From: a virus
Length of the DNA: 64,000 bases
Direction: 5' to 3' (one strand)
Virus record (IMG/VR): IMGVR_UViG_3300022930_000001
Location: 54,696 to 118,695 of that record
The notes under the pieces were generated by a model. The model searched no databases, was not told the DNA's origin, and saw only the letters and a program-made list of their open reading frames with translations. Numbering within the stretch: position 1 is the stretch's first letter; each line of letters starts with the position of its first letter. Shown here in pieces: positions 5,358 through 64,000 of the stretch. The position numbers were made by a program, and so were the translations under genes.

Positions 5358-5388
5358 CAAATATAAATAAAAAACAGCAAATTACCAA
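5358..5388 (-). promoter_or_regulatory. Bacteroidota-type sigma70 promoter
   Basis: TATATTTG (5358-5365) and TTGG (5385-5388), 19-nt spacer. Confidence 0.65.
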
Positions 5389-5442
5389 CAAATAAAGAAA
5401 TATTTATTAATGTATCTAATTATATTTGTTTATAATAGAGCA

Positions 5443-5670
5443 TTAGTTAAAAACTTCATCTGTCAATTCAATTATTTCTATTGATGGAAAATCAACATCG
5501 AATTCGTCTTTAAAATAATCGTAAAGCCATGCTACAGAAACTCTAATTCTAATATTATTTTCATTATAATATGCTCCTGATGTAAATACAACAAAATCAT
5601 TTATCGATGATGTTTTATTTGCCATTTTTAAAGCGAAATCTCGATTTATTATTATATATTGTCTTTTCAT
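5443..5670 (-). CDS. Hypothetical protein downstream of the fibre genes
   Basis: 75-aa ORF; starts 4 nt after the upstream gene's stop. Confidence 0.6.
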   Translation of the reverse strand: MKRQYIIINRDFALKMANKTSSINDFVVFTSGAYYNENNIRIRVSVAWLYDYFKDEFDVDFPSIEIIELTDEVFN

Positions 5671-7167: not shown

Positions 7168-8478
7168 TTAAATATTGTTTAATAATGCTAATAAATCCCA
7201 TTTAGTATCTGTTAAATTATATATAAATCCCAGATATAAAGTTTTACTTAAAATAGTAGTAGTAGGTAACGCTAAATCAGTAGAAGCTCGAAATATAGAA
7301 TTCCACGTTAAAGCTCTTGCTGTACCATTATCTTTTATTCTAATAATTAATTTTTGTCCTTGATATAGTGTACCTGTAGGTGCTGCAATTGTTAAACCTG
7401 CAGCCTGTGCTGTTAAAATATAAATATCTGTTATATCTGCATTTATTGTTAAAGTAGCTGTAGAAGTAGTACTAACAACTAATGGTTGATGCCTATCTAC
7501 ATAATTTGTAGATGCTATTTTAGAACTATTATCTCCCTGTGAAGGAGGTGATGCTAAAGTAGGACTACCCGTTAAACTTACAGATGCTTTTATAGTAGGA
7601 TTTGGATATGTTCCTGTTAAATCTCCACCTGCAGTTCCTGAAGGTGGTAATGATGTAGGCCCACCTGTAACTAAACTGTAGGGTACTGATCCTGCAATTA
7701 ATGTTCCAATAGTAGTTAATGAGGATGTAATTATAGAACTATTTAACGTAGTTCCAGTTAATGTATTTGCAGCAGCGGTAATGGTAATATTATTTGTACC
7801 ATCAAAACTAGTACCATTTATTGTTCTTGCTGTTTGTAATTTTGGAGCAGATACAATAGTTATTATAGGTGTTGTAGTACTTGTCGCAATAGTAGCCGTT
7901 GTTACATCTGCAGATGTAACAGAAGTTACAGTACCTGTATTAGAAGTATAACCATTTGGGTTACTTGCTAAATAATAAGTACTATTATCGTAACTTATTG
8001 TACTACCTGTAATTTTTACAAAGCCTGTGCCTGATAATGCATTTTGTTTAGTATTAAATGTATTCCAATCTGTCGAAGTTAAATAACCATTTTGAACAGC
8101 ATTTGCAGCTTGAGAACTTATTATTCCTGAACCACTATTAAAAAATATTGGAGATACTGCACTAATTGAAGCCAATGTTGGCCCTGTGTTTGTTATTGTA
8201 AAATTAGGATAAGTTCCTGTTACAGATATTCCTGTTCCATTAGTTATAGATACTATTTGATCAGGTGCGGTATTTATAATTGTACCTACACCAGTAATAG
8301 GATTAGGAGTAGCAGAAAGACCTGTTCCTGCGGTTATCGACAGTACAGTACCCGTACCTACAGGCAGATCTGCAAGTACGAGTTTACGTGCTTCTAATGG
8401 CCCAGAATAACCATCTGGTGTGGCAAAAACTAAATTAGGTTTTGGAGTTGGTGTAAATAAACTAGGATATGTTGTCAT
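7168..8478 (-). CDS. Tail fibre protein
   Basis: GTGTV.SI.AGTG, GYLTSTDWNTFN.KQ, KLQTARTINGTSFDGT.NITI, AGGDLTGTYPNP and KIASTNYV fibre motifs. Confidence 0.85.
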   Translation of the reverse strand: MTTYPSLFTPTPKPNLVFATPDGYSGPLEARKLVLADLPVGTGTVLSITAGTGLSATPNPITGVGTIINTAPDQIVSITNGTGISVTGTYPNFTITNTGPTLASISAVSPIFFNSGSGIISSQAANAVQNGYLTSTDWNTFNTKQNALSGTGFVKITGSTISYDNSTYYLASNPNGYTSNTGTVTSVTSADVTTATIATSTTTPIITIVSAPKLQTARTINGTSFDGTNNITITAAANTLTGTTLNSSIITSSLTTIGTLIAGSVPYSLVTGGPTSLPPSGTAGGDLTGTYPNPTIKASVSLTGSPTLASPPSQGDNSSKIASTNYVDRHQPLVVSTTSTATLTINADITDIYILTAQAAGLTIAAPTGTLYQGQKLIIRIKDNGTARALTWNSIFRASTDLALPTTTILSKTLYLGFIYNLTDTKWDLLALLNNI

Positions 8479-23700: not shown

Positions 23701-26591
23701 AAAAGTGTAGGATCTAAATACTGGATATCTCCTTTAGAATCACGTACTAATACACGACCTTTTTCATAACTTAAAAAGGTTATTTCATCTAGTTTAGTTT
23801 CAATATTTATATTTTCGGTATCTCTAGCTAATTCTGCTTCTTCTTTACTTTTAAAAGTATCTACAACAACTCCTTGTGGATTCTTAAGATCTGTTGTACC
23901 AACAGGTACAGTATAGCGACCTTCAATATTAGTTTTATACTGACGATCTACTTCATATGGTACTCCATTAATTTCTATTTCCTTTGCTTTAGACTCTTGT
24001 TTAGGGTTAGTATTATCAAAAGCAAGACCATTGAGCCATTCTTCATGATTTTTTATAAAATCTTCATAACCTTCTTGTGTAAAAAGATAATCATAAGTAG
24101 AACTTGCTAAATCTCTTCCTTTTTGTATTTGATTTATATCATGACCATAATTAATAAGATCTGTATTATTAACAGGATCTATTGTTGAAGCAATTGTTGG
24201 ATCTTGACCATTTACTTCAAAATTAGAAAGCTTGTTAAATAATTTAGGCAATTCATTCTCATCTCTTTTATTCAAAAAATTAGATATCGCTTCAGCATTA
24301 GTTTCATAAGCTTTTATCTGTTCTTTTGTTTTATTATATAATGTTGGATTTTCAGAACGTTTAATTGTTGTATTTAATTGTTCTGATAATTCATTTGCTT
24401 TAGATTTGTAATCTACTTTAAGCTCATTTAATTGTGAAGGATCAGTAAGTTTTGATATTAAGTCATTTGTTAATGCAAAATTAATCTGAGAAATATTACT
24501 TTGTATTGATCCTAAACGTTGATTAAAATCAGTCATATTATAACTCATTTTAACTAATGCACTTTTATAATCTTCAAAGGCAAACCATGCTTTATTTTCA
24601 TTAGTATGTGCCTCAGATTGAGGATTGCCTCTATATTGGTAAGGATTTTCAAATACATTAGCTACTGCATCATGTGACTTTTTAATTACTTGTGCTTTAC
24701 CAATTAATTCGTCTATATAAGCGTGATTAGATTCTCTTGTACCATCAGGTATTTGAAATAACTTATTAAGTTCTTCATTAGGAAGTTCTTTAAGCATTTC
24801 TAATTGAAGAGTTCGTACATCATAACGATTATTCTGTAATCCTGATTTAATAAAATTAAAAAATTCATCTGCTTTAAGATTCTTGAAAGCAAATATATTT
24901 TTATCTTGTACTGCTTGTGATATATCTTCTTTATGTTTTAAAGATTGTGCTGCACTATCATAATTATTTGCAAACAATCCAGTAACACCCTGTGCATTAA
25001 GATTATTTAATGCTACTTGTGAAGCTTCTTCAGGAGATAATACACCTGCTTTATTTCTTTGATATGTTTCATATTTAGAAGACAACGGATGAAACAACGC
25101 ACCAGTGATACTACCTAAAAGTATATTCTCAATACCTTCGGTAGTACCAAATTCTTGAGCTAAACCGTAGCCAACATTTGCAATTATATCTTTTAAATCA
25201 CCATTTATTTTACCATTATATTTATCTTCAAAATATTTTTTAACTCCTTTTTCAGTAGCAAACTGACCACCTTCTTCAAATATACCTTCAGAAAATATAG
25301 TTGGAACAACAGGTTTAATTGCATTCCATATTCTACCTACTTTTCCTATATTTTCTGTAGATAATGCAAGTCGATCAATATCCGAAACTACTTCTGGATT
25401 AATGTTTTCTAAACCAATTCTTCCTGCTTGTTCTTCTACAGTTGCTTCAATACCTTTTTTTACACCTTGTTTATAAGAATTCCAAGGCTTTAATATAGAT
25501 TCAAACTGAATTGCATTAGACACGGATAGAAGAGCCATATTAATACCGTAACGAGTATTACCTGCGGCAGTAGCAAATCCTTCTATTTTAGCAATATCAT
25601 CTGAAGTTGGATTATATCCATTTTCTTTATAAAAAGAATCTATTAAATCTTTTTTTACTTCTTCATAACCTTGACGTGCCTCCATACCTGCTTCAGTATT
25701 AGCTGAAGAGGCTAAAGTAGTCATATAACGCACACCTTTACCTATTCTAGCTCCTTCAGCAGCAGCCGCCATGTTTGCTATACTAAGAAGTGTTTCATCA
25801 CTTTTATTAAGTGTTCTTGCTGTATTGAGTACTTCTTCAAGACGATTTGTTCCTGTAAATAATTTATTAAGATATAGTGATGCTTTACCAACTTGATTTG
25901 CAAGTAGAGGTAATTCGCCAATACCTTCTGTAACAGCTCCAATAGCAATATCTTGTAATGCTGCTGAACCAATTGCACCTATCGTATAACCAAGATTTTT
26001 AACAACCTTATCTGACCAAAAATTAGCAGCACCTCCTGAAAAAGGTATTGCTGAAAGTAATGGATGTTCTTGTTCCCATTTAGTATAGTAATTTGGAAAT
26101 TGATCTTCAAGATTTTTAGTAAATGTATCTATAGTATTATACCAATCTCCTTTCCATATATTACCATCTTTAGTACCTGCAATAAGATCAGGTACTTGAA
26201 GTAAACCTTCAGCAAATGAACCTGCAGCAAGTCCGCCCATCTTAGCTAAACCATTACCCCATTTACTATACCAAGACTGATTCTTTGCATAATTTTCTTC
26301 ATTATCTTCAAAAGCATTATATACTGGATATTTTCTAGTAATAGGCTCTGGAGTAGATATTATTTTATCATAATTAGTAGTACGTTCTGGTTGAGCAAAA
26401 CGTGACATAACTTCAGACAAATCCATATCCATAAAACTCTTAGGTGTTTCACTTGTCACACCATTTGCTAATTGTTGAGGTTGATATGTAACAGGAGAAG
26501 CTTGAGGAATACTAATAGAAGATACATCCTGAATTTCAGGGTTTGGGCCTGTACTTAAATCTAAAGGAACTATTGGTGTTAAATCAGCCAT
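14703..26591 (-). CDS. Virion-packaged two-barrel RNA polymerase polyprotein (crAss-type)
   Basis: 3962 aa; catalytic GGDFDVDK (DFDVD at 17220-17234), GYRIPTQ, DPLKR, SDGQ, SGRK and KMHGG motifs; Gly/Ala-rich hydrophobic N-terminal region; zincin-like HEGFE. Confidence 0.92.
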   Translation of the reverse strand: MADLTPIVPLDLSTGPNPEIQDVSSISIPQASPVTYQPQQLANGVTSETPKSFMDMDLSEVMSRFAQPERTTNYDKIISTPEPITRKYPVYNAFEDNEENYAKNQSWYSKWGNGLAKMGGLAAGSFAEGLLQVPDLIAGTKDGNIWKGDWYNTIDTFTKNLEDQFPNYYTKWEQEHPLLSAIPFSGGAANFWSDKVVKNLGYTIGAIGSAALQDIAIGAVTEGIGELPLLANQVGKASLYLNKLFTGTNRLEEVLNTARTLNKSDETLLSIANMAAAAEGARIGKGVRYMTTLASSANTEAGMEARQGYEEVKKDLIDSFYKENGYNPTSDDIAKIEGFATAAGNTRYGINMALLSVSNAIQFESILKPWNSYKQGVKKGIEATVEEQAGRIGLENINPEVVSDIDRLALSTENIGKVGRIWNAIKPVVPTIFSEGIFEEGGQFATEKGVKKYFEDKYNGKINGDLKDIIANVGYGLAQEFGTTEGIENILLGSITGALFHPLSSKYETYQRNKAGVLSPEEASQVALNNLNAQGVTGLFANNYDSAAQSLKHKEDISQAVQDKNIFAFKNLKADEFFNFIKSGLQNNRYDVRTLQLEMLKELPNEELNKLFQIPDGTRESNHAYIDELIGKAQVIKKSHDAVANVFENPYQYRGNPQSEAHTNENKAWFAFEDYKSALVKMSYNMTDFNQRLGSIQSNISQINFALTNDLISKLTDPSQLNELKVDYKSKANELSEQLNTTIKRSENPTLYNKTKEQIKAYETNAEAISNFLNKRDENELPKLFNKLSNFEVNGQDPTIASTIDPVNNTDLINYGHDINQIQKGRDLASSTYDYLFTQEGYEDFIKNHEEWLNGLAFDNTNPKQESKAKEIEINGVPYEVDRQYKTNIEGRYTVPVGTTDLKNPQGVVVDTFKSKEEAELARDTENINIETKLDEITFLSYEKGRVLVRDSKGDIQYLDPTLLDKFTKLKSEEEIVAENANFYEDLDNTLAKETNTAPDLSSGEDTNENTEAEIKSREAAKKAKEIVNRSTTSNSNSTKEYYKLQKRFFSKFDTFKKDVKDNARVIFVHKNNQEALGLNGLVEKMLEGGYGAVYDINDPKLTPVLAIFVKQNKDKFEYLDSEGNILSNDNQFALNQLEENLQDRINDFINKGASVNDAKNLAWNEFPEADKKAIEKLRISQIDINNLIIGTMPIAKEQYLSGEESPWRNDTSKEYIKADNEAWQKQREIILANNSANPEMYNFNISRGFPEVELDAENNIKYNSAVGTLIKHSDLSKGNLLQVSNGKFVTPNNETLNIPSGKLVLINGNTVEKLNNRKFTENEVNNVYNLLKKFVTEAKATGHFNKEILTYFRGIMYWREVKEGSTIGNSQVYLNKGILNIGKYSTPFTSKAILDNQEAIKEAFSNIFVNANNKYVQNNTPFRELSINDNGDINAITWNSYQHYLLSNKYDIEETENELSGKTRSDLEIPFKTPVRPINGTVPNDSNYIGKYAVIGNSVSENAPLFNTIIKQEVKSASKTKTEETPITVNTPVETKSTGIQFNGKTVNTYKTSIGDLRFSVTKNKAGNNAIAIVSDGNYKKYITSLLTNPTEDFISYLEYFNEETPTKALAEDYLLEQVDNYITNSNIQEENPVTTVANEEKIQEQVKEISKEEVTKPSDKTNIAPGDINSLDLGDWNEEAFRTVLNSMNYTEHNLAKSEAWFKENIPVDSRRLNHLIKVTGGGYAWGSYFNKVASWYKNAKLGTIEHEGFEAIWGDFATLKERKEVLKEFNARTGSFISSETGKAITYSKATEHEAKEQLAEELGNYVLNNELYSEPKQGQNAIYRFFKKFVDFIKSMLGIDQSKIKQMFDKINTGYYKTSAYISEANNNGAEYSILNLTESDSYNIVRGLTYNIMGELFANNRNLIEFDEIGSEHAVKDLYNKVLKNVENLFTVKVPQLLKAGRINEVQFANFTKIWDSIKADNKNVNALVEEYLKTFSIVADLSGESILDLDIEKDPNKEAENTEYAANNPEGYLVNSFKVDAKKNASNSVKLLMATLPETTYIDPIDKTKGTKPVLDTATLMPKMANYSKTFNFLLNQLWDVNTWDEKEQRLMDLAKDYPNYVSLNKRLKIGQANVDLDTWNLRTKFFNVMSKQRPDAYIHFIGKDEEGKSGSRVRAINTNALVKSKAQEWLDTLKLAVSSPNNIVQIDKDNQYEFNGSKIASNPLKTAIDKLQYLNDLNIPFTNQIYNKLSESDKTEFSKAVLNLNNSLKNKNKVIDITPSTLNSAGNFNKIAALYLRGNEDSTSTFSNIDGEKQQQFVGNNFISNLTNDINGSKDKDDLIQRLPFITEDYRSDSVYLNKFLFTEEGEKTGKSIEIGYNQGLVNSEADEETPISKMIAPVRLLEQINMNLKKNYYMLVPADAQTEWMLKMEHIVPFDRFANNDVNDVIYRTFNNYYKTEKRIATDTQGQIKLDKNEQSIYKSTMYHKDFNSNYSTVDLNKDKFINYIDTNVTSIIKYLKDNNVITSNKNTPDKFILKGLDDEFLATNHLGKSFTEAELTQLFKFTETNYMINHIEMHKMYFGDPSVIKDPLKRYKSFFSPRESAMYASEALNRSLNEELNKAENIELTPNDYGYWKHKEFIPTVTIKDLRTSDARTDLGDAVSIVNDKSEGVAQYADDYEITNPSDGQSWAFLPAYREILYKNGGRFSKDHEALFQYVTALDRQAMYEDGHLNDDKDSANYYKPSLKVQDTKKVAEGYKGEAQFHVIKPIGSGITLDGKIFLDKTSLAPLSYTFVRGTALEPHYLKMWKQGIGYAIMESGRKLGGQNADSLYNEDGSVNKDKYNTIVNVPHRYYGVQVETAGGHYEGPLGSQLSKLGIVNLRDNGQAQTEAIQKKIERHNEALRNITNYGYEELLKKLGIKDKSGYFTAPDKNKVAKLLKNELFRRESPQNLKDAIQVGKDGNFIIPFEAMSNYQQIKDILYSFVDKLIAKPKMHGGPKIQLAGTGFEIGGRTVKKAKKDGKDVLVSNGLKFYSATYNEQGIRTSVGRMEVLLPMFFWDKIKTSKRWKNASEADILEHLNNTKEGREVLKGIGYRIPTQELNSVEAFIIKGFIPKWMGDTIVLPEAITTKSGGDFDVDKLNTYLKNIYLDESGNIKPIPYFGFGKEARAKFDEIDIEFNGTDEEYIAQILGDDFDIYSVNKIADRMYGESLQNEYFDSLSDLILLPENYERLIRPNSADIGKALRVELETIAPNEFSSAKDKSILNRQYMSNMRHLFLIGKAWVGISASSQTNNALNQSTQIVLNPEQLDKLDDNERKWIGNANIMLPHNTTVFEGKTLPTLSKAKDKAGEFISDKISRYIDGPVDIAKDPWVTQLFQNTASFSTGLFLEKLGVPDRDVIFFLNQPIIREYNKLLNDRKTAWLYNDKNIKDILSKFGLLPQFFKNGILLNPITINSIDTKSLKGNIEKFYSGKKFTQEENEQQKTILYEYLKYSVLATHLFNFQRATSYDTNPQSEPNQQFRKTNLLVAVQTNNIWTSINSLLDNTSLGAVVDKVQKSSKAISQSYSIYNDIIRGNIEKVLSQLPSSGINFEKAARQVEESYLSYIVQTNLGTNTRIQELMLDTEKNLAKQVWELKKDLTKNHKNSDLANNKILQELISLVGNKRSEVKNITIAQKPQDVFTADVYTNAFRELRDNPITQELYSNIIDLSILQSGLGQSPIAFSKFIPYEDYSTKIADVLKNITGAPNLQEFVQTGQFFRNNWKNTDLVPNINEDFDDTLLSKYKFPRTPQWFSALKESKGITDNKYTLYKIFSKKGVANNSFITMNTYPTPIDAENETNKRTILLQRVEDETGTPIEILNTYSSGFVSDNGFYLYVPINPLGDGMKLQEYYTDIRPSVTNNAGYKIENELSMQEIVRAYANRLNTNKAQNIQENLDISENLPNIVNPEISSSEEKNSIDQQIDNMINDGEIEPQC

Positions 26592-51558: not shown

Positions 51559-52749
51559 TTATAGTCCACTAAAGAACGAATCACCGGAAGTTACTGGACG
51601 AGAAGTTCTTTTAATGTGTTTATCTTTTATAACTAAATCTTCAAAATATCTATTTGATTCTTTAGATACTAAATTTGTTTTTATTTTGGAAAGATCAAGT
51701 TTATTTTTTAACAGAAGAGCCATCTTGAGTTTAAGTTCTATATTTTTTGGATCACGAAGTTCTAGAATATCTTTATCGAAATCTGTAAGCTTTTCACCTG
51801 AAGGTAATTGCCATTTTTCAGTATCTAAATAATCATATGTTTCTCGAACAACTTTATCTGTTATTGGTATACCATCAAACTCTTTTGCTTTTATTTTATC
51901 TGCAAGCAATTTCTGCAAATTATTTTGATATTCTGCTTTCTGCCGTTTACGATTAATTTCTTCAGATGCTTTCTGTTCTGTTATTTCCTGAAGTTCTTCT
52001 TCTTCTTGCCTCATGATAAGTTCATGAGCAATAGGAGCTTCTTCCTCTAGATCACCATAATCTTTAAGTTTCTGTATTTTCTTGTCAATTATTTCATCTT
52101 TAAGACCTTGCCTACGAAGAGATTCACGAACTACTCGTTCCTGATTCATTTCTTGTGTAAGATCTAAATCTCGCATTGATTGTAGTTCAGAAAATTTAGA
52201 AAGATATTCTTTAGGTGAAACTCCTTTAACAAAAATATCTTCAAATACTTTCAAACCTTCTTCTCCATGCTTTGAAACAAGAAAATTTTGTATATCACTA
52301 TTAACTTGTTCCTGACGTTCAGCAATCCATTTATCTTTAAACTCTTCTCCTGTTGCAGGAAGTTTTTCATCATCTTTCTGTGAAAAGATTCCTAAATCTA
52401 CAAGATTTTTAGAAAGAGTAGAAAAAGTGTTAGAATCATCTTCATCTTCAGTTATAGTATCTTCCTTAGGAGTAGTTGTAGGTTTTTCTATATCTGTTTT
52501 CTCTTTAGATATAGCTCCTAGATTATCTAATAGATCTTCAGCATCTACTTCTACAGAAGTTGCTATTATTTCTTTAGATGCATCTTCGTCAATTTTAGTA
52601 ATTTGTGTTTTATTAATTGGTTGAACCTTATTAGGATCTGTAGAAGGACTTCCACCACCAAAAAGTAAATCAGCAACATCCGAATCTATAGCAGAAGAAG
52701 CCTGTATACCAAAGCCACCACCTAAGAAGTTTGTATCTTGATTTTCCAT
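51559..52749 (-). CDS. Scaffold-like acidic coiled-coil protein
   Basis: Acidic N-terminus and helical core; lies between portal and MCP. Confidence 0.7.
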   Translation of the reverse strand: MENQDTNFLGGGFGIQASSAIDSDVADLLFGGGSPSTDPNKVQPINKTQITKIDEDASKEIIATSVEVDAEDLLDNLGAISKEKTDIEKPTTTPKEDTITEDEDDSNTFSTLSKNLVDLGIFSQKDDEKLPATGEEFKDKWIAERQEQVNSDIQNFLVSKHGEEGLKVFEDIFVKGVSPKEYLSKFSELQSMRDLDLTQEMNQERVVRESLRRQGLKDEIIDKKIQKLKDYGDLEEEAPIAHELIMRQEEEELQEITEQKASEEINRKRQKAEYQNNLQKLLADKIKAKEFDGIPITDKVVRETYDYLDTEKWQLPSGEKLTDFDKDILELRDPKNIELKLKMALLLKNKLDLSKIKTNLVSKESNRYFEDLVIKDKHIKRTSRPVTSGDSFFSGL

Positions 52750-52889: not shown

Positions 52890-55493
52890 CTATTTCTTCT
52901 TAGAAGAAGCAGCTTTTTGCTTATTTTCTTTTGCTATTTTAACCTGTTGATCAATTTTATACTTTTCCATTTGAAGTTTCTCTCGTTGTAAATTATTACT
53001 ATCTAATGTTTGTCTTTGTGAATTTAAAATATCTGCTTGCTTCTGAGTTAATTCTTTAAGTTTTAATTGATACTCACGTTCAGCTTTAGATATTTCTAGA
53101 TTTTGTTGAGAAAGTTCTAATACATCAGGTAATCCATTTCCATTGACATCTTCACCACCTGATTTGGAAGTAGCACTAATCATTGCGATTCTTTCTTTTG
53201 ATAAGCGATCTTGTTCCTTTTGATAAGCATCATATGCCTGATCCTTTTCATGTTGCAATTGTAACAACTGTTGTGTTTTTTCAAACTGTTGCTGCTGCAT
53301 TTGCATTTCTTGCTGTTTCATTTGCTGTTCTTGATCAAGACGTTGATCAGTTTCTTTTTTCATTTTCTTAAAGATGTCTTTCATTTGACGCATACTCTTA
53401 GTAGAATATAATACCGCAACCTCATAAGGAGAAGCACCATTCTGAAGCATAGCTTGAGAAAGCTGTCTAAATTCTTGAAAATTCCTAGCATCTTCAGCTC
53501 TAGAAGTAACAAATACGCCAAGTTCTTTTAATTTAAGATCTGCACCATTAACTTGAACAAATGCTGCTTCACCTTCAGTGGTAATATAACTAATTGTGCT
53601 TTGAGGTTTAGTTGATTCTATTTTCAAAGCAGCATCAAGAATTGCTTGATATAGTTTATTAAGAGTATATTCATGTTGAGCAAACCAAGGTTCTGTTTGG
53701 GCATAAGATTGTGTTAAAGAACTATTAATAGCTGTTGCAGTCTCTGTTGCTTTAGATTCACCAACACGATTATCAGAAAGACCTATAAGTTTCCAACATT
53801 CTGTACGCATCTGTACTGCAAGATTATAATACCCTTGTATTTCATTTGCTCTTGATAGATTTAATGCAGTGTGTTGATTAAAGCTTGAAGGTGCTTTAAG
53901 ATTTTCAGGTGAATCATCTATAAAGATAATACCCTTTTCTCTTGCTTCTGCTTCCCACATTTCTAGAGCATCTTGGTGATCTCCATCTTTTGGTACAGGT
54001 ATATGTCGAATAGATGTCAAAAATGTCATACCCATGTCCTTTTCAGTAAGCTTAAACAGCTTATTCATTGCTACATTATAAAGCATTTGAAAAGGTTTCA
54101 TCATATCTATTAATGATGGTGGATCAGTAACATTTTTAGGTTCAAACAAACAACCTACTATAGGACAATAGTCAAGTATTTCTAATGGTTTAACATAATA
54201 AACATCTAATCCTATTTTAACTCCTTCATACCACTGATTAACCCATCCCCATTCTAAAGATATCTGTTGTGGATGCATACCTGATTTATATTCTTCACCA
54301 ACAAGCATTACCTGTTCTGCGCCATCCTCATCAATATATTTTAATTCTCCTACTTTCTTTTTAGAAGCCCAATATGCTCGAACAATAAGAAATTTATTAC
54401 CAAATACTGCCGCAGAACTAGTTATTCCTAAAAGTGAACTTAATTCATCTTGATTTTCATGAGCTTCTCCTTCCAATAGTTGTCGATATTGTAAAACGGC
54501 AGGATCATAATTATCATATCGAACACTATTAAAACCTGCTTTACCGGGAACAACTAAATTAGAAGGTGTAGAATTTAATAGATAACCTTGTTGAGACATA
54601 TCTCTAAGATGATCAATTTCATCTTTACCAAGTTTAAATTTATTAATAATTTCTGAAAACTCCATTATTTCAACTGTGCCTGCAGCATAAGCTCCCTTAT
54701 TCATATCTAAAGGATCAGAAGTATATCTCGTATCAGTACTATTAAGATACCATACGTTTTTAGGATTCATTACTTCAATATTAAATCCAAAAGGAGAATT
54801 ATCTGCATAAATATGATAATATTCTTCTGCAGATATGAGAAGATCTCTAAAAGCATCTTCTGATTTTTCTTTTATATTAAATCTCATTTTCATAAGATCT
54901 AATACTCTAGCTCCCCATCTCTCGGCCATTGATGAATAAGAAGTTAAATATTCCTCTGCTTTTTCAGCAGTCATTTGATTTAACTCATCATCTTCCATTT
55001 CAATACCTTGCATAGAAGCTTTTGCTTGCAACTGTTGTTTTACTACAGTCATAATAAGCTGCTGTAAAGTATCTGTTCTAAATTCTAATTCTTGTGATTT
55101 AGAATCATCATCAAAAGCCTTAACAATAACATTGTCAGGTCGTTTAGTCATTTCACCAACCATAGTATTCAGTGGTGAATTTAATATAGAATAGTGCTTT
55201 ACATAAGAAGGTAATGATTCATCTCGCAAAAGAGTTTCTGTAAAAGATTGAACTAATGGTTCATTATAAAAATCACTACGTCTTAGAATACCTTTTACTA
55301 ATTCATAATTAGGAACTATCTTATATCGATTATGAGTATATTGTTGAAGTGCAAGATTATAAAAATAATCCATATTTACTTTCCACCAATCATGATCTTG
55401 TTTTTCTCGTTCTCCTACAAACTGATCAGGATAACGATTAAGAAGTGCAAAGTTTGGATCAGTATACTTTTTTGTATATTTAATGATTGCCAT
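52890..55493 (-). CDS. Portal protein
   Basis: 867 aa after TerL; GE..KRP, SLIDMMKPFQMLYN, R.G....ETA motifs and a Q-rich C-terminal coiled coil. Confidence 0.9.
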   Translation of the reverse strand: MAIIKYTKKYTDPNFALLNRYPDQFVGEREKQDHDWWKVNMDYFYNLALQQYTHNRYKIVPNYELVKGILRRSDFYNEPLVQSFTETLLRDESLPSYVKHYSILNSPLNTMVGEMTKRPDNVIVKAFDDDSKSQELEFRTDTLQQLIMTVVKQQLQAKASMQGIEMEDDELNQMTAEKAEEYLTSYSSMAERWGARVLDLMKMRFNIKEKSEDAFRDLLISAEEYYHIYADNSPFGFNIEVMNPKNVWYLNSTDTRYTSDPLDMNKGAYAAGTVEIMEFSEIINKFKLGKDEIDHLRDMSQQGYLLNSTPSNLVVPGKAGFNSVRYDNYDPAVLQYRQLLEGEAHENQDELSSLLGITSSAAVFGNKFLIVRAYWASKKKVGELKYIDEDGAEQVMLVGEEYKSGMHPQQISLEWGWVNQWYEGVKIGLDVYYVKPLEILDYCPIVGCLFEPKNVTDPPSLIDMMKPFQMLYNVAMNKLFKLTEKDMGMTFLTSIRHIPVPKDGDHQDALEMWEAEAREKGIIFIDDSPENLKAPSSFNQHTALNLSRANEIQGYYNLAVQMRTECWKLIGLSDNRVGESKATETATAINSSLTQSYAQTEPWFAQHEYTLNKLYQAILDAALKIESTKPQSTISYITTEGEAAFVQVNGADLKLKELGVFVTSRAEDARNFQEFRQLSQAMLQNGASPYEVAVLYSTKSMRQMKDIFKKMKKETDQRLDQEQQMKQQEMQMQQQQFEKTQQLLQLQHEKDQAYDAYQKEQDRLSKERIAMISATSKSGGEDVNGNGLPDVLELSQQNLEISKAEREYQLKLKELTQKQADILNSQRQTLDSNNLQREKLQMEKYKIDQQVKIAKENKQKAASSKKK

Positions 55494-61625: not shown

Positions 61626-62060
61626 TTATTTAATATTTAAATACTGCATTATTTTCTTTAGTTCGTTAATAGATTTAATTTCTCCCCAAAAAACGCCGTT
61701 TCCTCTATCGTCTATCTGCCACTTTCCGCCCCAACCAGCACAATAAATAAGATCGTATCCCGATTCACTACTAACTAACTTAGTATAACTTTGATTATAA
61801 CCATCTTGTGTATATTCTTGGCATACCCATCCTAATGATTCTATATCTGATTGATCAAGATATTTAGTTCTAATAAACTTTTTAAGACTATTTTCTTCTT
61901 CTGCCCATTGTATGTACCATCTTAAATCAGTACTAGTTAATTTGTCTTTAACTACATCATCATAATCTTCAACAATAAAAGATGACATATTACTTGTATG
62001 TTCACATTCATATCCTACATATAGATCTTCTATTTCAGGAGTATAATATTTATTCTTCAT
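61626..62060 (-). CDS. Hypothetical phage protein
   Basis: YYTP.IE...VGYE.E, KYLD..DIESLGW, IKSINELKK. Confidence 0.75.
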   Translation of the reverse strand: MKNKYYTPEIEDLYVGYECEHTSNMSSFIVEDYDDVVKDKLTSTDLRWYIQWAEEENSLKKFIRTKYLDQSDIESLGWVCQEYTQDGYNQSYTKLVSSESGYDLIYCAGWGGKWQIDDRGNGVFWGEIKSINELKKIMQYLNIK

Positions 62061-62250
62061 CTTCTTCCTCCATTTTTATAAATCCATTCTCAATCATTTG
62101 CTTAGGGTAGAATTGATGAGTTTTACCATTCTCAGTCTTCATACTAAAATAATTATTATTACTCATATAATAGATCTGTCCTTCAGGGAAAGTATAAGTC
62201 TCATCTACTATTTGATCCTTAAGCCAAGTTATTTTTATTCTTTTTTTCAT
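62050..62250 (-). CDS. Hypothetical protein
   Basis: 66 aa, first gene after the promoter at 62270. Confidence 0.65.
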   Translation of the reverse strand: MKKRIKITWLKDQIVDETYTFPEGQIYYMSNNNYFSMKTENGKTHQFYPKQMIENGFIKMEEEDEE

Positions 62251-62269
62251 ATACTTATTTTTACTATTG

Positions 62270-62301
62270 CAAAAATAGTGTATATATTTTAGATGACCAA
62301 A
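62270..62301 (-). promoter_or_regulatory. Bacteroidota-type sigma70 promoter
   Basis: TATTTTTG (62270-62277) and TTTG (62298-62301), 20-nt spacer. Confidence 0.75.
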
Positions 62302-62319
62302 TTTAATTTTTAAAATTAG

Positions 62320-62532
62320 TTATTTATATATTGGATGCACTGATAACCAAGCTTTTGTGATTTCATCTAATACATCTCCTTTTACATAGGATTTACAATT
62401 CTTATAATAGTTCTTATCTAATACTAGATTATATTTATTTTCTAAAGCAATTAGTTCTTCTTCAGTTAATCCTGTGAGATAATTTCCTTCTTTATTTCTA
62501 TATGGACAATATGCTATTTTTCCTGTTATCAT
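62320..62532 (-). CDS. 70-aa miniature paralog of the N-terminal domain of 48814..49797
   Basis: ATG at 62532 (MITGKI...); PYRNKEGNYLTGL and ITKAWLSVHP match PHKERNGEYRTGL and ITYAWLRVHP. Confidence 0.7.
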   Translation of the reverse strand: MITGKIAYCPYRNKEGNYLTGLTEEELIALENKYNLVLDKNYYKNCKSYVKGDVLDEITKAWLSVHPIYK

Positions 62533-62536
62533 AAAG

Positions 62537-62566
62537 CAAAGATAAATAAAATTTTTTAAAGTCAAG
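62537..62566 (-). promoter_or_regulatory. Bacteroidota-type promoter, nearly leaderless
   Basis: TATCTTTG (62537-62544) 4 nt before the ATG at 62532; CTTG about 18 nt upstream. Confidence 0.6.
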
Positions 62567-62715
62567 TATAGCCTAAAAATTTTTAAAATTTTGAAAGTTG
62601 TTTTATGTACCCGGGGTTATACCACATCATCTTCAGACTCCCGTTATCGTTTGCGAGGTGACGGTATTCCCCTATGCACTATTTAACTTAATTTAACTTT
62701 AAAACAAAAACAATT

Positions 62716-63159
62716 ATGAAACGTGAATTGAATGTTCCATTTATGACTCGCATCACCAAGTTCCGTGGTGACAAACAAGCTCAAGCTTTGAATTCTAAGC
62801 AAGAAGTACTTGCTATTCCAGAAGCATTTCGTGCTGACATAGCCGAAGGTGACAGTGTTATCTGTATGCTTAAGGAATACAATAGTGCATCTATTGATCC
62901 TAATACTGGTGATGCATTGGTTGATGCCAATGGTGCAGTAGTATATGGTGGCCCAACCTTTACTCGTATTGATGTAGTAGACTTTGGTACTACTGTTGAG
63001 ATAACTCAGAAGTTCTATGCTGATGAGATACTTGATGCAGAAGCTACTGATATAGTAAAGGAAACTATCACTGCTGCTCGTGAAGCACGCAAGCGTCCTA
63101 TTACTACAGATCGTAAGCCTGTTGTAGCTACTGCTGATGCAGAGCCTGTAATGAGCTAA
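62716..63159 (+). CDS. First gene of the plus-strand (putative early) region, hypothetical
   Basis: 147 aa, apparent high-expression codon bias, A-rich leader, followed by a terminator. Confidence 0.85.
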   Translation: MKRELNVPFMTRITKFRGDKQAQALNSKQEVLAIPEAFRADIAEGDSVICMLKEYNSASIDPNTGDALVDANGAVVYGGPTFTRIDVVDFGTTVEITQKFYADEILDAEATDIVKETITAAREARKRPITTDRKPVVATADAEPVMS

Positions 63160-63168
63160 GAATAATCT

Positions 63169-63212
63169 TTAAGAGCTATTGTACTGTAATGGTGCAGTAG
63201 CTCTTAATTTTT
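63169..63212 (+). terminator. Intrinsic terminator
   Basis: 18-bp stem TTAAGAGCTATTGTACTG/TGGTGCAGTAGCTCTTAA with several G-U pairs (favours the plus strand), then a T-run. Confidence 0.8.
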
Positions 63213-63314
63213 ATTAGTTACAACCTCTATAATACTAGCTGCAGAGCCGTTGTGAACCTTGAATACAATTACCCTGATCAGGAGTATTCTTGTAGTATGT
63301 ATGTTGTAACTAAT
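63213..63314 (+). ncRNA. Candidate structured RNA
   Basis: 12-bp closing stem ATTAGTTACAAC/GTTGTAACTAAT enclosing nested stems ATACTA/TAGTAT, GAATAC/GTATTC and the palindrome CCTGATCAGG. Confidence 0.45.
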
Positions 63315-63400
63315 TATTTTATTATCATGTGCTTCTGATAGTATACATTAGTTGCATTTATTTAATAATCATATCTAACTAATTATAATATTAATACCTT

Positions 63401-63508
63401 ATGCGAATATCTAGAGTATTATTAGACAAATGGGTTTATTCTTTTTATCCAGATCTTCATCCTAGAATAATGTATTATCATTTATTATGTTGGAGATCTA
63501 ATTATTAG
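63401..63508 (+). CDS. Possible 35-aa small protein
   Basis: MRISRVLLDKWVYSFYPDLHPRIMYYHLLCWRSNY* after an A/T-rich leader; not in the ORF track. Confidence 0.35.
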   Translation: MRISRVLLDKWVYSFYPDLHPRIMYYHLLCWRSNY

Positions 63509-63588
63509 TTGCAATCATTACTTATATATTCTTTTCTATTATATCTTATTACTATTCAACTTATTATTCATTCTTTAATATAACTATT

Positions 63589-63786
63589 ATGACTAGGCTA
63601 ATGAAATATCATACAATAATGGCTAATCCTGAGTACTATTGGGAGAATAATCAAGTTGCACACCAACTACTTAAGAAAAAGTTAACTACACATCAAGAAT
63701 ATCGCGATGCATGTAGCAGTGCAGGATGTATGGTTTATACTGAAGCAGTTTATACTGATCATATGAATGATGTTCAACACAACTAA
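63589..63786 (+). CDS. Hypothetical early protein
   Basis: 65-aa ORF with an A-rich leader. Confidence 0.6.
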   Translation: MTRLMKYHTIMANPEYYWENNQVAHQLLKKKLTTHQEYRDACSSAGCMVYTEAVYTDHMNDVQHN

Positions 63787-63797
63787 TTAAAAATAAA

Positions 63798-63829
63798 TTT
63801 GGTGGATTGATTTATTTGTTTTATCTTTG
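63798..63829 (+). promoter_or_regulatory. Bacteroidota-type sigma70 promoter
   Basis: TTTG (63798-63801), 20-nt spacer, TATCTTTG (63822-63829). Confidence 0.8.
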
Positions 63830-63835
63830 CATCAA

Positions 63836-63924
63836 TAGATTGTTGTGCGACAATCATCAAGAGTTTAAACTGTTAATCAGTTCACCCACTTAGATGCGCA
63901 CACATCTGGTGGGTTTTTTCTTTT
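63836..63924 (+). ncRNA. Small RNA or attenuator leader with kissing loops, ending in an intrinsic terminator
   Basis: Hairpin 1 loop TGTGCG is the exact reverse complement of terminator loop CGCACA; terminator is followed by TTTTTCTTTT. Confidence 0.6.
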
Positions 63925-64000
63925 AATACAATTCTGATTAACAAACTGCTAAAAGGGATCAGATAACCAAGCATTGTGCCACTGTAACTACAGACGCTAT

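What the first reader, a model, noticed from the sequence alone, without database searches (positions are those of the whole stretch)
63798..63943. Promoter-driven ~85-nt RNA whose 5' hairpin loop is perfectly complementary to its own terminator loop
Seen: a consensus promoter (63798-63829) is followed by hairpin GATTGT-[TGTGCG]-ACAATC (63838-63855). Terminator ACCCAC-T-TAGATG-[CGCACA]-CATCTG-GTGGGT (63884-63914) plus a U-tract follows. The two 6-nt loops are exact reverse complements and GC-rich in an AT-rich genome. TGTTAATCAG (63871-63880) can either form a local hairpin (AACTG/CAGTT) or pair perfectly with CTGATTAACA (63934-63943) beyond the terminator. Inference: a kissing-loop attenuator or trans-acting small RNA controlling read-through into downstream genes, conceptually similar to P4 CI or P1 C4 RNA immunity, and a possible basis for carrier-state or superinfection control.
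Basis: partly seen in the sequence, partly recalled or inferred. Interest (0 to 1): 0.75.

Follow-up and report, generated by a model that had tools for sequence, protein, structure and literature searches.

The report
Promoter-to-terminator small RNA unit in phage

Summary
All motifs lie at the stated coordinates. The promoter is credible. It belongs to a conserved A-rich/TTTGG/TAnCTTTG class also found in related phages. Of 18 such motif hits in this genome, it is the only intergenic, sense-strand one with no ORF start within 150 nt. A strong intrinsic terminator follows about 50 nt downstream (12 bp, about -16 kcal/mol, U-tract).

The special pairings are each only marginally unusual. A GC-rich 6-nt loop-loop match occurred in 2 of 60 genome shuffles. 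The flank pairing around the terminator is matched by 4-7% of controls. An antiterminator-like alternative helix is matched by 3.5-7% of controls.

No homolog was found by BLAST, covariance model, pattern scans or flanking proteins. No RNA run holds the phage, so covariation and expression could not be tested.

Earlier notes of this scan describe the same kissing-loop terminator leader design on other Bacteroidota phage DNA. My structure search did not find it recurring in this genome, 6 complete relatives, 101 other loci or 4 named phages.

The most likely reading is a host-polymerase-made small RNA or leader at the head of the early block. The window ends at an assembly junction, so the downstream genes lie at the start of the record.

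The parts
63589..63786 (+). Upstream 65-aa ORF. It has no terminator of its own before T1.
   Evidence: One search lists the ORF. The codon-usage score is +0.19 per codon, against -0.46 +/- 0.17 for 13 shadow ORFs. It has no homolog except itself among 5.8 billion proteins.
63786..63829 (+). Bacteroidota sigma-A-type promoter. It has an A-rich upstream stretch, -33 TTTG(GT) at 63798, a 20-nt spacer and -7 TATCTTTG at 63822-63829.
   Evidence: Sequence. blastn of the region against 80 terminase-related loci matches only this stretch (L100 at 89% over 37 nt, plus L108, L158, L152 and others). Of 18 motif hits in the genome, 11 have an ORF start within 30 nt. This is the only intergenic, sense-strand hit with none within 150 nt. 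The -7 box lies at -12 to -5 in Flavobacterium (PMC9723704, passages).
63834..63924 (+). Predicted short non-coding transcript. The start is inferred 5 nt after the -7 box. The 3' end is inferred within the U-tract, giving about 86-91 nt.
   Evidence: MFE -25.5 kcal/mol, z -3.46. The largest ORF is 17 codons by my reading, and no ORF of 30 aa or more is listed. There are no Rfam matches. No RNA data exist.
63838..63855 (+). 5' hairpin GATTGT[TGTGCG]ACAATC.
   Evidence: Energy alone is -4.7 kcal/mol. Pair probabilities are 0.8-0.93.
63855..63861 (+). CATCAAG. Together with the TGTGCG loop it can pair with CTTAGATGCGCACA (63889-63902), the 5' half plus loop of the terminator, as an antiterminator-like alternative.
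   Evidence: This is the MFE at transcript lengths 69 and 75 nt. The duplex is -12.1 kcal/mol, reached by 6.9% of 2000 shuffles and 3.5% of 1222 genomic 50-mers. The full-length alternative folds at -18.3 against -25.5 kcal/mol.
63868..63882 (+). Weak middle hairpin AACTG[TTAAT]CAGTT. It overlaps the left arm of the inverted repeat (AGTTT..TGTTAATCAG, 63862-63880).
   Evidence: -2.7 kcal/mol.
63884..63924 (+). Intrinsic terminator T1. It has 12 bp with one bulged U, the loop CGCACA, and the tail TTTTTCTTTT.
   Evidence: Energy is -15.9 to -16.3 kcal/mol. It is not listed by the simple scan. Its loop has 4 of 6 G/C, whereas the other strong terminators of the genome have A/T-rich loops such as TTAATT.
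63934..63948 (+). Right arm of the inverted repeat, CTGATTAACAAACT. It pairs with 63862-63880 across T1 and is present only in read-through transcripts.
   Evidence: I15. The folds at 110-130 nt show it. Significance is marginal.

Best explanation
This is a self-contained short transcription unit on the + strand of a circularly assembled 118.6-kb phage. The phage is AT-rich (28.8% GC) and carries promoters of Bacteroidota type. The unit lies at the head of the phage's early gene block.

Proposed mechanism, all inferred from sequence:
- The host RNA polymerase with its primary sigma factor starts at about 63834, from a -33 TTTG / -7 TATCTTTG promoter.
- It transcribes three hairpins.
- It mostly stops at a strong intrinsic terminator, releasing a non-coding RNA of about 86-91 nt.
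- The same terminator also ends transcripts of the 65-aa gene just upstream. The arrangement therefore resembles a small RNA with its own promoter that shares an mRNA's terminator.
- A minority of transcripts would read through. They would cross 180 nt of GC-elevated non-coding sequence to a second terminator-like hairpin at record bases 222-257, and then reach a 30-codon hydrophobic ORF and the early genes.
- The two GC-rich apical loops, UGUGCG and CGCACA, are the likeliest interaction surfaces. They could pair with each other, giving a compact kissed fold. Alternatively they could pair between the short RNA and nascent or read-through copies.

Only the sequence anatomy is shown. The transcription start, the 3' end, the termination efficiency and any pairing are inferred.
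For: Promoter:
- Only the promoter stretch of the region is conserved in terminase-related phages.
- It shares the extended AAATAAATTTGGT...TATCTTTG form with the genome's promoter at record base 25854.
- 11 of 18 motif hits in the genome are followed by an ORF start within 30 nt. This one has none within 150 nt. The first + strand ORF of 30 aa or more lies 356 nt downstream.

Terminator and structure:
- The terminator has 12 bp at about -16 kcal/mol and a U-tract.
- Structure z-scores are -3.46 and -3.29.
- GC is 0.33-0.40 from the predicted start to the second hairpin, against 0.15-0.28 in the flanking non-coding DNA.
- The loop-loop match is GC-rich, and a match of this kind arose in only 2 of 60 shuffled genomes.
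- T1 is the only strong terminator of the genome with a GC-rich loop.

Published context:
- In the crAss-like phage phi14:2, host RNA polymerase transcribes from sigma-A-like promoters. Intergenic regions at the start of its early block give abundant non-coding RNAs (preprint 10.1101/2020.03.07.982082, passages).
Against: - There is no expression evidence. The only two runs holding the phage are DNA, kept as contigs.
- No homolog was found anywhere I could search, so conservation and co-variation are untested.
- The simple terminator scan does not list T1.
- No phage target stands out. The best duplex with 160 translation-start regions is -20.5 kcal/mol. Shuffled versions of the RNA reach a mean best of -21.6. 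There is no antisense match of 12 nt or more beyond chance.
- The elevated GC runs 200 nt past T1. This hints that the longer transcript matters.
- Apart from a weak -7 box at record base 2962, no other host-type promoter lies on the + strand in intergenic DNA for the next 8 kb. This fits a leader as well as a stand-alone small RNA.
- The host is unknown.
Confidence: 0.5

Rival explanations
1. Regulated leader (attenuator). The promoter's real task is to express the downstream early genes, and T1 (with the second hairpin) is a conditional stop. The hairpin-1 loop plus CAUCAAG pairs with the terminator's 5' half and loop before the terminator can close. This would occur either in cis, as an antiterminator or kiss, or through the already terminated short RNA acting on nascent copies, as in IsrK or P4 CI.
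For: - The alternative 13-bp helix is the MFE at transcript lengths 69 and 75 nt.
- Apart from a weak -7 box at record base 2962, no other TTTG/TAnnTTTG promoter lies in intergenic DNA on the + strand between this one and record base 7965.
- GC stays elevated as far as the second hairpin.
- A 10-14-nt complement of the RNA's middle part lies just beyond T1, so it is present only in read-through copies.
- Earlier scan notes report the same design heading genes in other Bacteroidota phages. These are leads, not support.
Against: - The antiterminator duplex is matched by 3.5-7% of controls and the flank pairing by 3.6-7.3%.
- The terminator fold is 7.2 kcal/mol more stable.
- A loop-loop kiss needs the terminator hairpin to be formed already, so by itself it cannot prevent termination (inference).
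- No aptamer-like family matches.
- The first gene is 356 nt away, behind a second terminator-like hairpin.
- In phi14:2, early genes are made by the virion polymerase without a recognisable promoter motif. The early genes here therefore need not depend on this promoter.
Confidence: 0.25
2. Ordinary gene-end terminator plus a promoter whose short product has no function of its own. T1 simply ends the 65-aa gene's mRNA and insulates the early block. The loop match, the inverted repeat and the alternative helix are coincidences.
For: - Each special pairing is only marginally unusual. They were picked after the fact from 64 kb.
- About one loop-loop match of 6 nt is expected per strand per genome, and 2 other matches exist in this genome.
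- In three structure searches, reverse-complement loop matches were no commoner than the control relations:
  - 3 against 2, 4 and 3 among 307 terminators.
  - 0 against 11, 1 and 2 among 483 terminators.
  - 1 against 6, 3 and 3 among 190 terminators.
- No homolog is known.
Against: - The promoter is of the conserved strong class and lies between a stop codon and that gene's terminator. This position is odd for a promoter without a product.
- The two loops are the GC-rich exception among this genome's terminator loops.
- A GC-rich match is about 30 times rarer than any match.
Confidence: 0.15
3. A DNA-level element, not an RNA. The nested inverted repeats would serve as protein-binding sites, a replication origin, or a packaging or end region. 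They lie in the large non-coding zone next to the divergent junction of the two gene blocks.
For: - The unit lies 1.1 kb from the divergence point of the + and - gene blocks, in a gene-poor zone.
- The related phages have repeat-rich junction regions.
- The record's ends fall inside the unit.
Against: - The 127-bp terminal overlap is the kind an assembler leaves on a circular contig. That reading is recalled, not tested. A second assembly of 118,598 bases runs straight through the last 5 kb of the window.
- The repeat words do not recur as clusters elsewhere in the genome.
- The promoter, the U-tract and the strand asymmetry (no T-run on the - strand) all point to RNA.
Confidence: 0.05

Closest known systems
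IsrK small RNA of the Gifsy-1 prophage of Salmonella (PMC4825925; abstract and passages read)
   Same: - A promoter is followed closely by a Rho-independent terminator, so most transcripts are a short RNA.
- A portion reads through to give a long isoform carrying downstream ORFs.
- The short form pairs in trans with the long form. Here, 10-14 nt of the short RNA are complementary to a site just past T1.
   Different: - There is no sequence or host relation.
- The pairing here is short and statistically marginal.
- No expression data exist, and no antiterminator protein gene was identified nearby.
P4 CI RNA and P1/P7 C4 RNA immunity (P4 as described in passages of PMC4825925; P1 details recalled)
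   Same: A phage RNA carries a sequence complementary to sites in its own operon's transcript. That pairing enforces termination or blocks expression of downstream genes.
   Different: - Those RNAs are cut out of a longer primary transcript and act in lysogens or plasmid prophages.
- This unit has its own promoter and terminator.
- The phage shows no lysogeny genes in what I examined. I did not survey the whole genome for them.
- Rfam lists no match in the unit at E up to 10.
Abundant non-coding RNAs from intergenic regions at the start of the early block of the crAss-like phage phi14:2 (preprint 10.1101/2020.03.07.982082; passages)
   Same: - A Bacteroidota phage with a large virion-polymerase-type genome layout.
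- Non-coding transcripts from intergenic DNA among the first early genes.
- Function unknown.
   Different: - Those regions are hundreds of bases long, and one holds a tmRNA gene by ARAGORN.
- My model finds no match in phi14:2.
- No promoter-terminator-kiss unit was found there by structure search.
Kissing-loop terminator leader RNAs noted earlier in this scan on other Bacteroidota phage DNA (e1-5903126, e1-5795767, e1-3439917, e1-5354353, e1-3428426, e1-6074612, e1-5635487, e1-5767792; AI notes)
   Same: - A host-type promoter.
- A small hairpin at the 5' end whose loop is complementary to the loop of a terminator hairpin.
- About 85-105 nt in total.
- Absent from Rfam.
- One of the notes is also from a leaf-litter phage.
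   Different: - Those leaders are said to abut the gene they head and to recur several times per genome and in relatives with different loop letters.
- Here the next gene is 356 nt away, behind a second hairpin.
- I found no second copy in this genome, 6 complete relatives, 101 other loci or 4 named phages.
- I could not see the other elements' sequences.
Promoter-proximal terminator units released by antitermination, such as lambda PR'-6S RNA-tR' (recalled)
   Same: A strong promoter is followed within 100-200 nt by an efficient terminator. The default product is a short RNA, and downstream genes need read-through.
   Different: No Q-like antiterminator or binding site was identified. The unit heads early genes, not late genes.

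Membership tests
Bacteroidota primary-sigma promoter (-33 TTTG / -7 TAnnTTTG) | A -7 box TAnnTTTG and a -33 TTTG about 19-21 nt apart | tested here: met
   TTTG at 63798-63801 and TATCTTTG at 63822-63829, with a 20-nt spacer. The form matches the genome's gene-heading promoters. The box position is taken from PMC9723704 passages.
Bacteroidota primary-sigma promoter (-33 TTTG / -7 TAnnTTTG) | Transcription actually starts there | not testable with these tools
   No RNA run holds the phage.
Intrinsic (Rho-independent) terminator | A GC-rich hairpin directly followed by a U-tract | tested here: met
   12 bp with 8 G-C pairs, -15.9 to -16.3 kcal/mol, then TTTTTCTTTT. The simple scan does not list it, because the stem has a bulge.
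P4 CI / P1 C4 antisense RNA family | Match to the curated RNA family model. That Rfam holds such a model is recalled. | tested here: not met
   cmscan at E up to 10 lists no such family over window 62000-64000 or record bases 1-1627.
P4 CI / P1 C4 antisense RNA family | The RNA is released by processing of a longer leader, and complementary target sites lie upstream and downstream in the same transcript | tested here: inconclusive
   The unit has its own promoter and terminator, not processing sites. One complementary site lies downstream (63934-63948). None lies upstream of the RNA. Processing cannot be tested.
Kissing-loop terminator leader RNA (class noted by this scan, unpublished) | A host-type promoter, a 5' hairpin and a terminator hairpin with complementary loops, within about 85-105 nt | tested here: met
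   The -7 box ends 8 nt before the hairpin, the loop match is 6 of 6, and the U-tract begins 84 nt after the -7 box.
Kissing-loop terminator leader RNA (class noted by this scan, unpublished) | Recurs in the genome or in relatives, with the loop pairing kept by different letters | tested here: not met
   A structure search found no other promoter-linked case. It covered this genome plus 6 complete relatives (307 terminators), this genome plus 80 relatives' loci (25 promoter-terminator units), 101 other loci (483 terminators) and 4 named phages (190 terminators). Control relations scored as often. My descriptor is strict, and the collections where the class was reported were not searchable.
Kissing-loop terminator leader RNA (class noted by this scan, unpublished) | Directly heads a gene | tested here: not met
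   The next + strand ORF of 30 aa or more starts 356 nt after the predicted start, behind a second terminator-like hairpin.
Riboswitch or other catalogued cis-regulatory RNA | Match to an Rfam model | tested here: not met
   Only 9 weak, unrelated matches, with E from 0.64 to 9.5. None lies within 63798-63943.
Type I toxin-antitoxin (antisense RNA over a small hydrophobic ORF) | A real, promoted small toxin ORF on the opposite strand, overlapped by the RNA | tested here: not met
   The - strand 30-aa ORF (63882-63974) scores -0.31 per codon, within the range of shadow ORFs. No -7 box lies upstream of it.

The most novel reading that the evidence does not exclude
The unit is a diverged, single-copy member of an undescribed design of Bacteroidota-phage RNA. 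In this design the loop of the first hairpin of the transcript recognises the loop (and here also the 5' strand) of the promoter-proximal terminator. The amount of short RNA already made would then set how much polymerase reads on into the early genes. That would be product feedback on termination through a private 6-nt code.
Probability: 0.15. Interest if true: 0.7.

Novelty: new member of a known kind. Interest (0 to 1): 0.35.

Why it matters
Small RNAs and leader switches of phages that infect Bacteroidota are almost unstudied. The searches turned up no description of one in crAss-like phages, apart from the uncharacterised non-coding RNAs of phi14:2.

If the two loops really talk to each other, this would be a very small, self-contained device for dosing transcription. 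It could be tested with a handful of point mutants.

As it stands it is one unconserved candidate from one metagenome. Its value is mainly as a further example to set beside the similar units that this scan noted on other DNA.

Tried and rejected
**Homolog searches that found nothing**
- blastn (distant mode) of 63560-64000 against 50,697 phage records gave no match.
- The flanking 65-aa, 100-aa and 147-aa ORFs, used as anchors in IMG/VR, gave no relatives.
- The exact hairpin-1 word in IMG/VR gave one hit, inside an unrelated coding region.
- PhoH loci: 80 were kept of 156 found. None shares any neighbouring gene, so they are not syntenic.
- The 65-aa and 147-aa ORFs have no homolog except themselves.
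- The 100-aa ORF has 30 homologs. Its 21 loci hold no neighbour homolog and no look-alike of the unit.
- The stems-only pattern gave 0 hits in IMG/VR, and the terminator-stem pattern gave 0 in genome contigs.
- Covariance model R1 was built from the single sequence entered twice.
  - It matched itself at 121.9 bits.
  - In 10 complete relatives it gave only one weak hit, E 0.19. That hit has many non-standard pairs and no U-tract, so I rejected it.
  - It gave 0 hits in 100 loci totalling 1.48 Mb and 0 in 5 named phage records.
- The scan index holds no look-alike.

**Sequencing runs**
- No RNA holder is listed.
- The two DNA runs are both leaf litter, and one may be the source. They are kept as contigs and show no variants.
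- Parts without cover in X2 say nothing.

**Readings rejected**
- Trans targets in the phage: not better than for shuffled RNA.
- Type I toxin-antitoxin with the - strand ORF.
- A coding reading of the unit itself. The largest ORFs are 17 and 10 codons by my reading, and none of 30 aa or more is listed.
- Homology of the GGGGGTAGGGGG hairpin region to the relatives' G-run leaders: only a short, weak similarity (z up to 3.6).
- Pfam and PHROGs give no function for the neighbouring small ORFs.
- The representative search with the 108-aa ORF found 1172 relatives. It was of no use once contigs could not be fetched.

**Other limits**
- Supplementary files of the papers were not opened. Supplementary Tables 2-4 and file 1 of the phi14:2 preprint may list promoters and non-coding RNAs that bear on the comparison.
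Full report
**What is there**

- TTTG at 63798-63801 and TATCTTTG at 63822-63829, 20 nt apart.
- The hairpin GATTGT[TGTGCG]ACAATC at 63838-63855.
- A weak hairpin AACTG[TTAAT]CAGTT at 63868-63882.
- A 12-bp hairpin with one bulged U and the loop CGCACA at 63884-63914, followed by TTTTTCTTTT.
- The 10-nt inverted repeat TGTTAATCAG / CTGATTAACA at 63871-63880 and 63934-63943.

The 92-nt stretch folds at -25.5 kcal/mol with z -3.46, and 0 of 200 shuffles fold as well. My repeat on 89 nt gave z -3.29, with 1 of 200 shuffles as good.

RNAfold closes hairpin 1 with an extra U.G pair, leaving a 4-nt loop. The 6-nt-loop version costs 1.2 kcal/mol more.

The sigma-70 and simple terminator scan lists neither the promoter nor the terminator. 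It is not built for Bacteroidota promoters or for bulged stems. An RNAfold-based scan finds the terminator at -16.3 kcal/mol.

**Where it lies**

The window is bases 54696-118695 of a 118,695-bp virus record. The first and last 127 bases of that record are identical. The window end therefore cuts the unit's surroundings at an assembly junction.

A second assembly of the same phage (118,598 bases, in the run that may be the source) carries the last 5 kb of the window in its interior.

Downstream of the terminator, the record start shows in order:
- About 180 nt without an ORF.
- A long hairpin with GGGGGTAGGGGG in its loop and a T-run, at record bases 222-257.
- A 30-codon hydrophobic ORF at 317-409.
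- Small + strand genes.

The genome has two divergent blocks. The + block starts at window 62716 and wraps round to about record base 55230. The - block holds the portal, terminase, capsid and giant proteins.

The terminase is at most 38% identical to that of any named phage. It is 29.7% identical to those of Cellulophaga phages phi17:2 and phi4:1, and 25-30% identical to those of Crassvirales members. About 167 uncultured contigs carry a terminase 65-67% identical. Several are complete genomes of 111-118 kb.

The two runs that hold the phage are leaf-litter metagenomes.

**The promoter is real in kind**

When the 1-kb region was compared with the 80 related loci, only window 63786-63830 matched. 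L100 matched at 89% over 37 nt, and six further loci matched more weakly. There the same A-rich/TTTGG/TAnCTTTG form heads transcription units.

In this genome the motif occurs 18 times.
- 11 hits are followed by the start of an ORF of 25 aa or more within 4-28 nt.
- 3 have such an ORF at 75-101 nt.
- 4 have none within 150 nt.

Of those last four, three lie antisense inside the opposite gene block (record bases 66005, 89181 and 11176). The fourth is this one.

The motif as such is only about twice as frequent as in Markov shuffles: 11 and 9 per strand against about 6. The argument therefore rests on the extended form, its conservation and its position.

In Flavobacterium the -7 box lies at -12 to -5 (PMC9723704, passages). 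That puts the start at about 63834.

**The terminator and the product**

Strong hairpin-plus-T-run terminators are few in this genome, about ten, and their loops are A/T-rich, several being TTAATT. T1 is of that strength but has a loop with 4 of 6 G/C.

The 65-aa ORF that ends 12 nt before the promoter scores as coding: +0.19 per codon against -0.46 +/- 0.17 for 13 shadow ORFs. It has no terminator of its own. T1 therefore probably serves both that mRNA and the promoter.

The expected main product is a non-coding RNA of about 86-91 nt.

GC stays at 0.33-0.40 from the predicted start to the second hairpin, against 0.15-0.28 in neighbouring non-coding DNA. The 166 nt between the two hairpins show no structure signal (z -0.09).

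**How unusual are the pairings**

*Loop-loop match.* 3 of 1212 adjacent hairpin pairs per strand in the real genome match over 6 nt or more. Shuffled genomes give 0.97 per strand. Matches with 4 or more G/C appeared in 2 of 60 shuffles.

That sequence is the terminator's inner 5' strand plus its loop.
- This 13-bp helix is the MFE when the transcript is 69 or 75 nt long.
- The duplex (-12.1 kcal/mol) is equalled by 6.9% of 2000 shuffles and 3.5% of 1222 genomic 50-mers.
- The full-length alternative is 7.2 kcal/mol weaker than the terminator fold.

*Repeat around the terminator.* It extends to AGTTT[AAACT]GTTAATCAG / CTGATTAACAAACT. Equally strong pairing occurs in 3.6% of 3000 shuffles and 7.3% of 1941 genomic positions of the same geometry.

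Each feature is suggestive and none is compelling. All were chosen after looking.

**Relatives and expression**

The searches are listed under Tried and rejected.

The two ORFs upstream of the unit are orphans. No RNA run holds the phage.

**The scan's earlier notes**

One search returned eight earlier reports. They describe a 'kissing-loop terminator leader RNA' in other Bacteroidota phages, of the same design as here. It is said to recur with different loop letters and to head nuclease and other early genes. These are unchecked AI notes, so I treated them as a lead.

I wrote a structure search for a terminator whose loop is the reverse complement of the loop of a hairpin within 100 nt upstream. 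Three control relations were scored alongside: identity, reverse, and complement without reversal. The number of terminators with a loop match of 6 nt or more was:

| Set searched | Terminators | Reverse complement | Controls |
|---|---|---|---|
| This genome plus six complete relatives | 307 | 3 | 2, 4, 3 |
| 101 other phage loci | 483 | 0 | 11, 1, 2 |
| phi14:2, phi17:2, cr10_1, cr130_1 | 190 | 1 | 6, 3, 3 |

A further search anchored on promoters covered this genome plus 80 loci. It found 25 promoter-terminator units, of which 2 reached 6 nt: this one and an A/T-rich case with a 15-nt loop.

Only the present unit combines the match with a -7 box, which ends 8 nt before the hairpin.

The design therefore does not recur in anything I could reach. 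That neither confirms nor refutes the earlier notes, which concern other genomes. My descriptor is also strict.

**What it most likely is**

I commit to a host-polymerase-driven short non-coding RNA that ends at T1, with some read-through (confidence 0.5).

The regulated-leader reading is second (0.25). Three things favour it:
- The lack of another strong host-type promoter in intergenic DNA for the next 8 kb of the + strand.
- The transient antiterminator-like fold.
- The GC-elevated stretch running beyond T1.

It is weakened by the marginal statistics. It is also weakened by phi14:2, where early genes are made by the virion polymerase without a recognisable promoter.

A plain terminator with coincidental pairings stands at 0.15. 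A DNA-level element stands at 0.05.

**Comparison with known systems**

The closest published analogue in logic is IsrK of Gifsy-1. There a short terminated RNA acts on its own read-through isoform (PMC4825925, abstract and passages).

P4 CI, as described in the same paper, shares the idea of self-complementary sites. It is made by processing, and the unit matches no Rfam family.

phi14:2 shows that crAss-like phages make abundant non-coding RNAs from early intergenic DNA. Those regions are different in kind, and one contains a tmRNA gene.

I rate the unit as a new member of a known kind: a phage promoter-proximal terminated small RNA or leader. Interest is 0.35, because nothing beyond sequence anatomy supports a special mechanism.

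Noticed in passing
L086:7934-7985, L118:7735-7785 and about 40 more sites in L084-L163; own record bases 222-257 (outside the window): In the related phages, the junction promoter of the same class is followed at once by two G-runs (for example GGGGGGGATTTAGGGGGGG or GGGTGGAGGGTGGGG). There were 42 such sites in the 80 loci. This genome has a single comparable element, GGGGGTAGGGGG. It lies not at a promoter but in the loop of the second terminator-like hairpin, flanked by GTTACAAA/TTTGTAAC words that also occur in the relatives' promoter spacers.
   Followed up: partly
window 59443 (- strand; record base 114138); L086 about 8070, L105 about 7890, L117 about 7860: The word GCATAATATAGCA (or a near-identical form) lies about 2 kb upstream of the terminase, on its strand, both here and in the relatives. 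It may be a conserved promoter or regulatory site of another class.
   Followed up: no
record bases 26480, 46738 and 51611 (outside or before the window); L188:4560-4581: Several strong terminators of this phage share the loop TTAATT, and so does one in Cellulophaga phage phi14:2. At record base 51611 the terminator overlaps the -33 box of the next promoter.
   Followed up: no
record bases 1682-1768 and 5366-5453 (outside the window): ARAGORN finds two tRNA-Leu(UAA) genes in early intergenic gaps and no tmRNA anywhere in the record. A first-stage note (e1-6140531) speaks of a tmRNA in this genome.
   Followed up: partly
record bases 556-858 (L002): The 100-aa Cys-rich protein (GNGYHGxCxHC ... 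TDLGYCSW ... C) has about 30 homologs at 42-60% identity (two partial matches reach 74%), in phage-like contigs with unrelated neighbours. It has no Pfam or PHROG family. It appears to be a mobile accessory gene of unknown function.
   Followed up: partly
record bases 1599, 2888 and 11338 (+ strand, outside the window): The word (T)A(A/G)(T/A)AGAACTATTA recurs in three early intergenic gaps. It may be a promoter of another class, such as one for the virion polymerase.
   Followed up: no
L188:4031-4500 (Cellulophaga phage phi14:2, NC_021806.1): ARAGORN calls a tmRNA gene (tag GSSVQKLAMVA) inside the non-coding zone before g006. This lies within one of the two highly transcribed 'long non-coding RNA' regions of the phi14:2 preprint (passages). 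I did not check whether this is already in print.
   Followed up: partly
record bases 317-409 (L002): A 30-codon ORF encodes a hydrophobic peptide (MSTADAIGNILGIVIFFGILSCLFERNTTN). Its codon score is positive (+0.27). It is the first ORF after the two hairpins. The relatives also place small membrane-protein ORFs after their G-run leaders.
   Followed up: no
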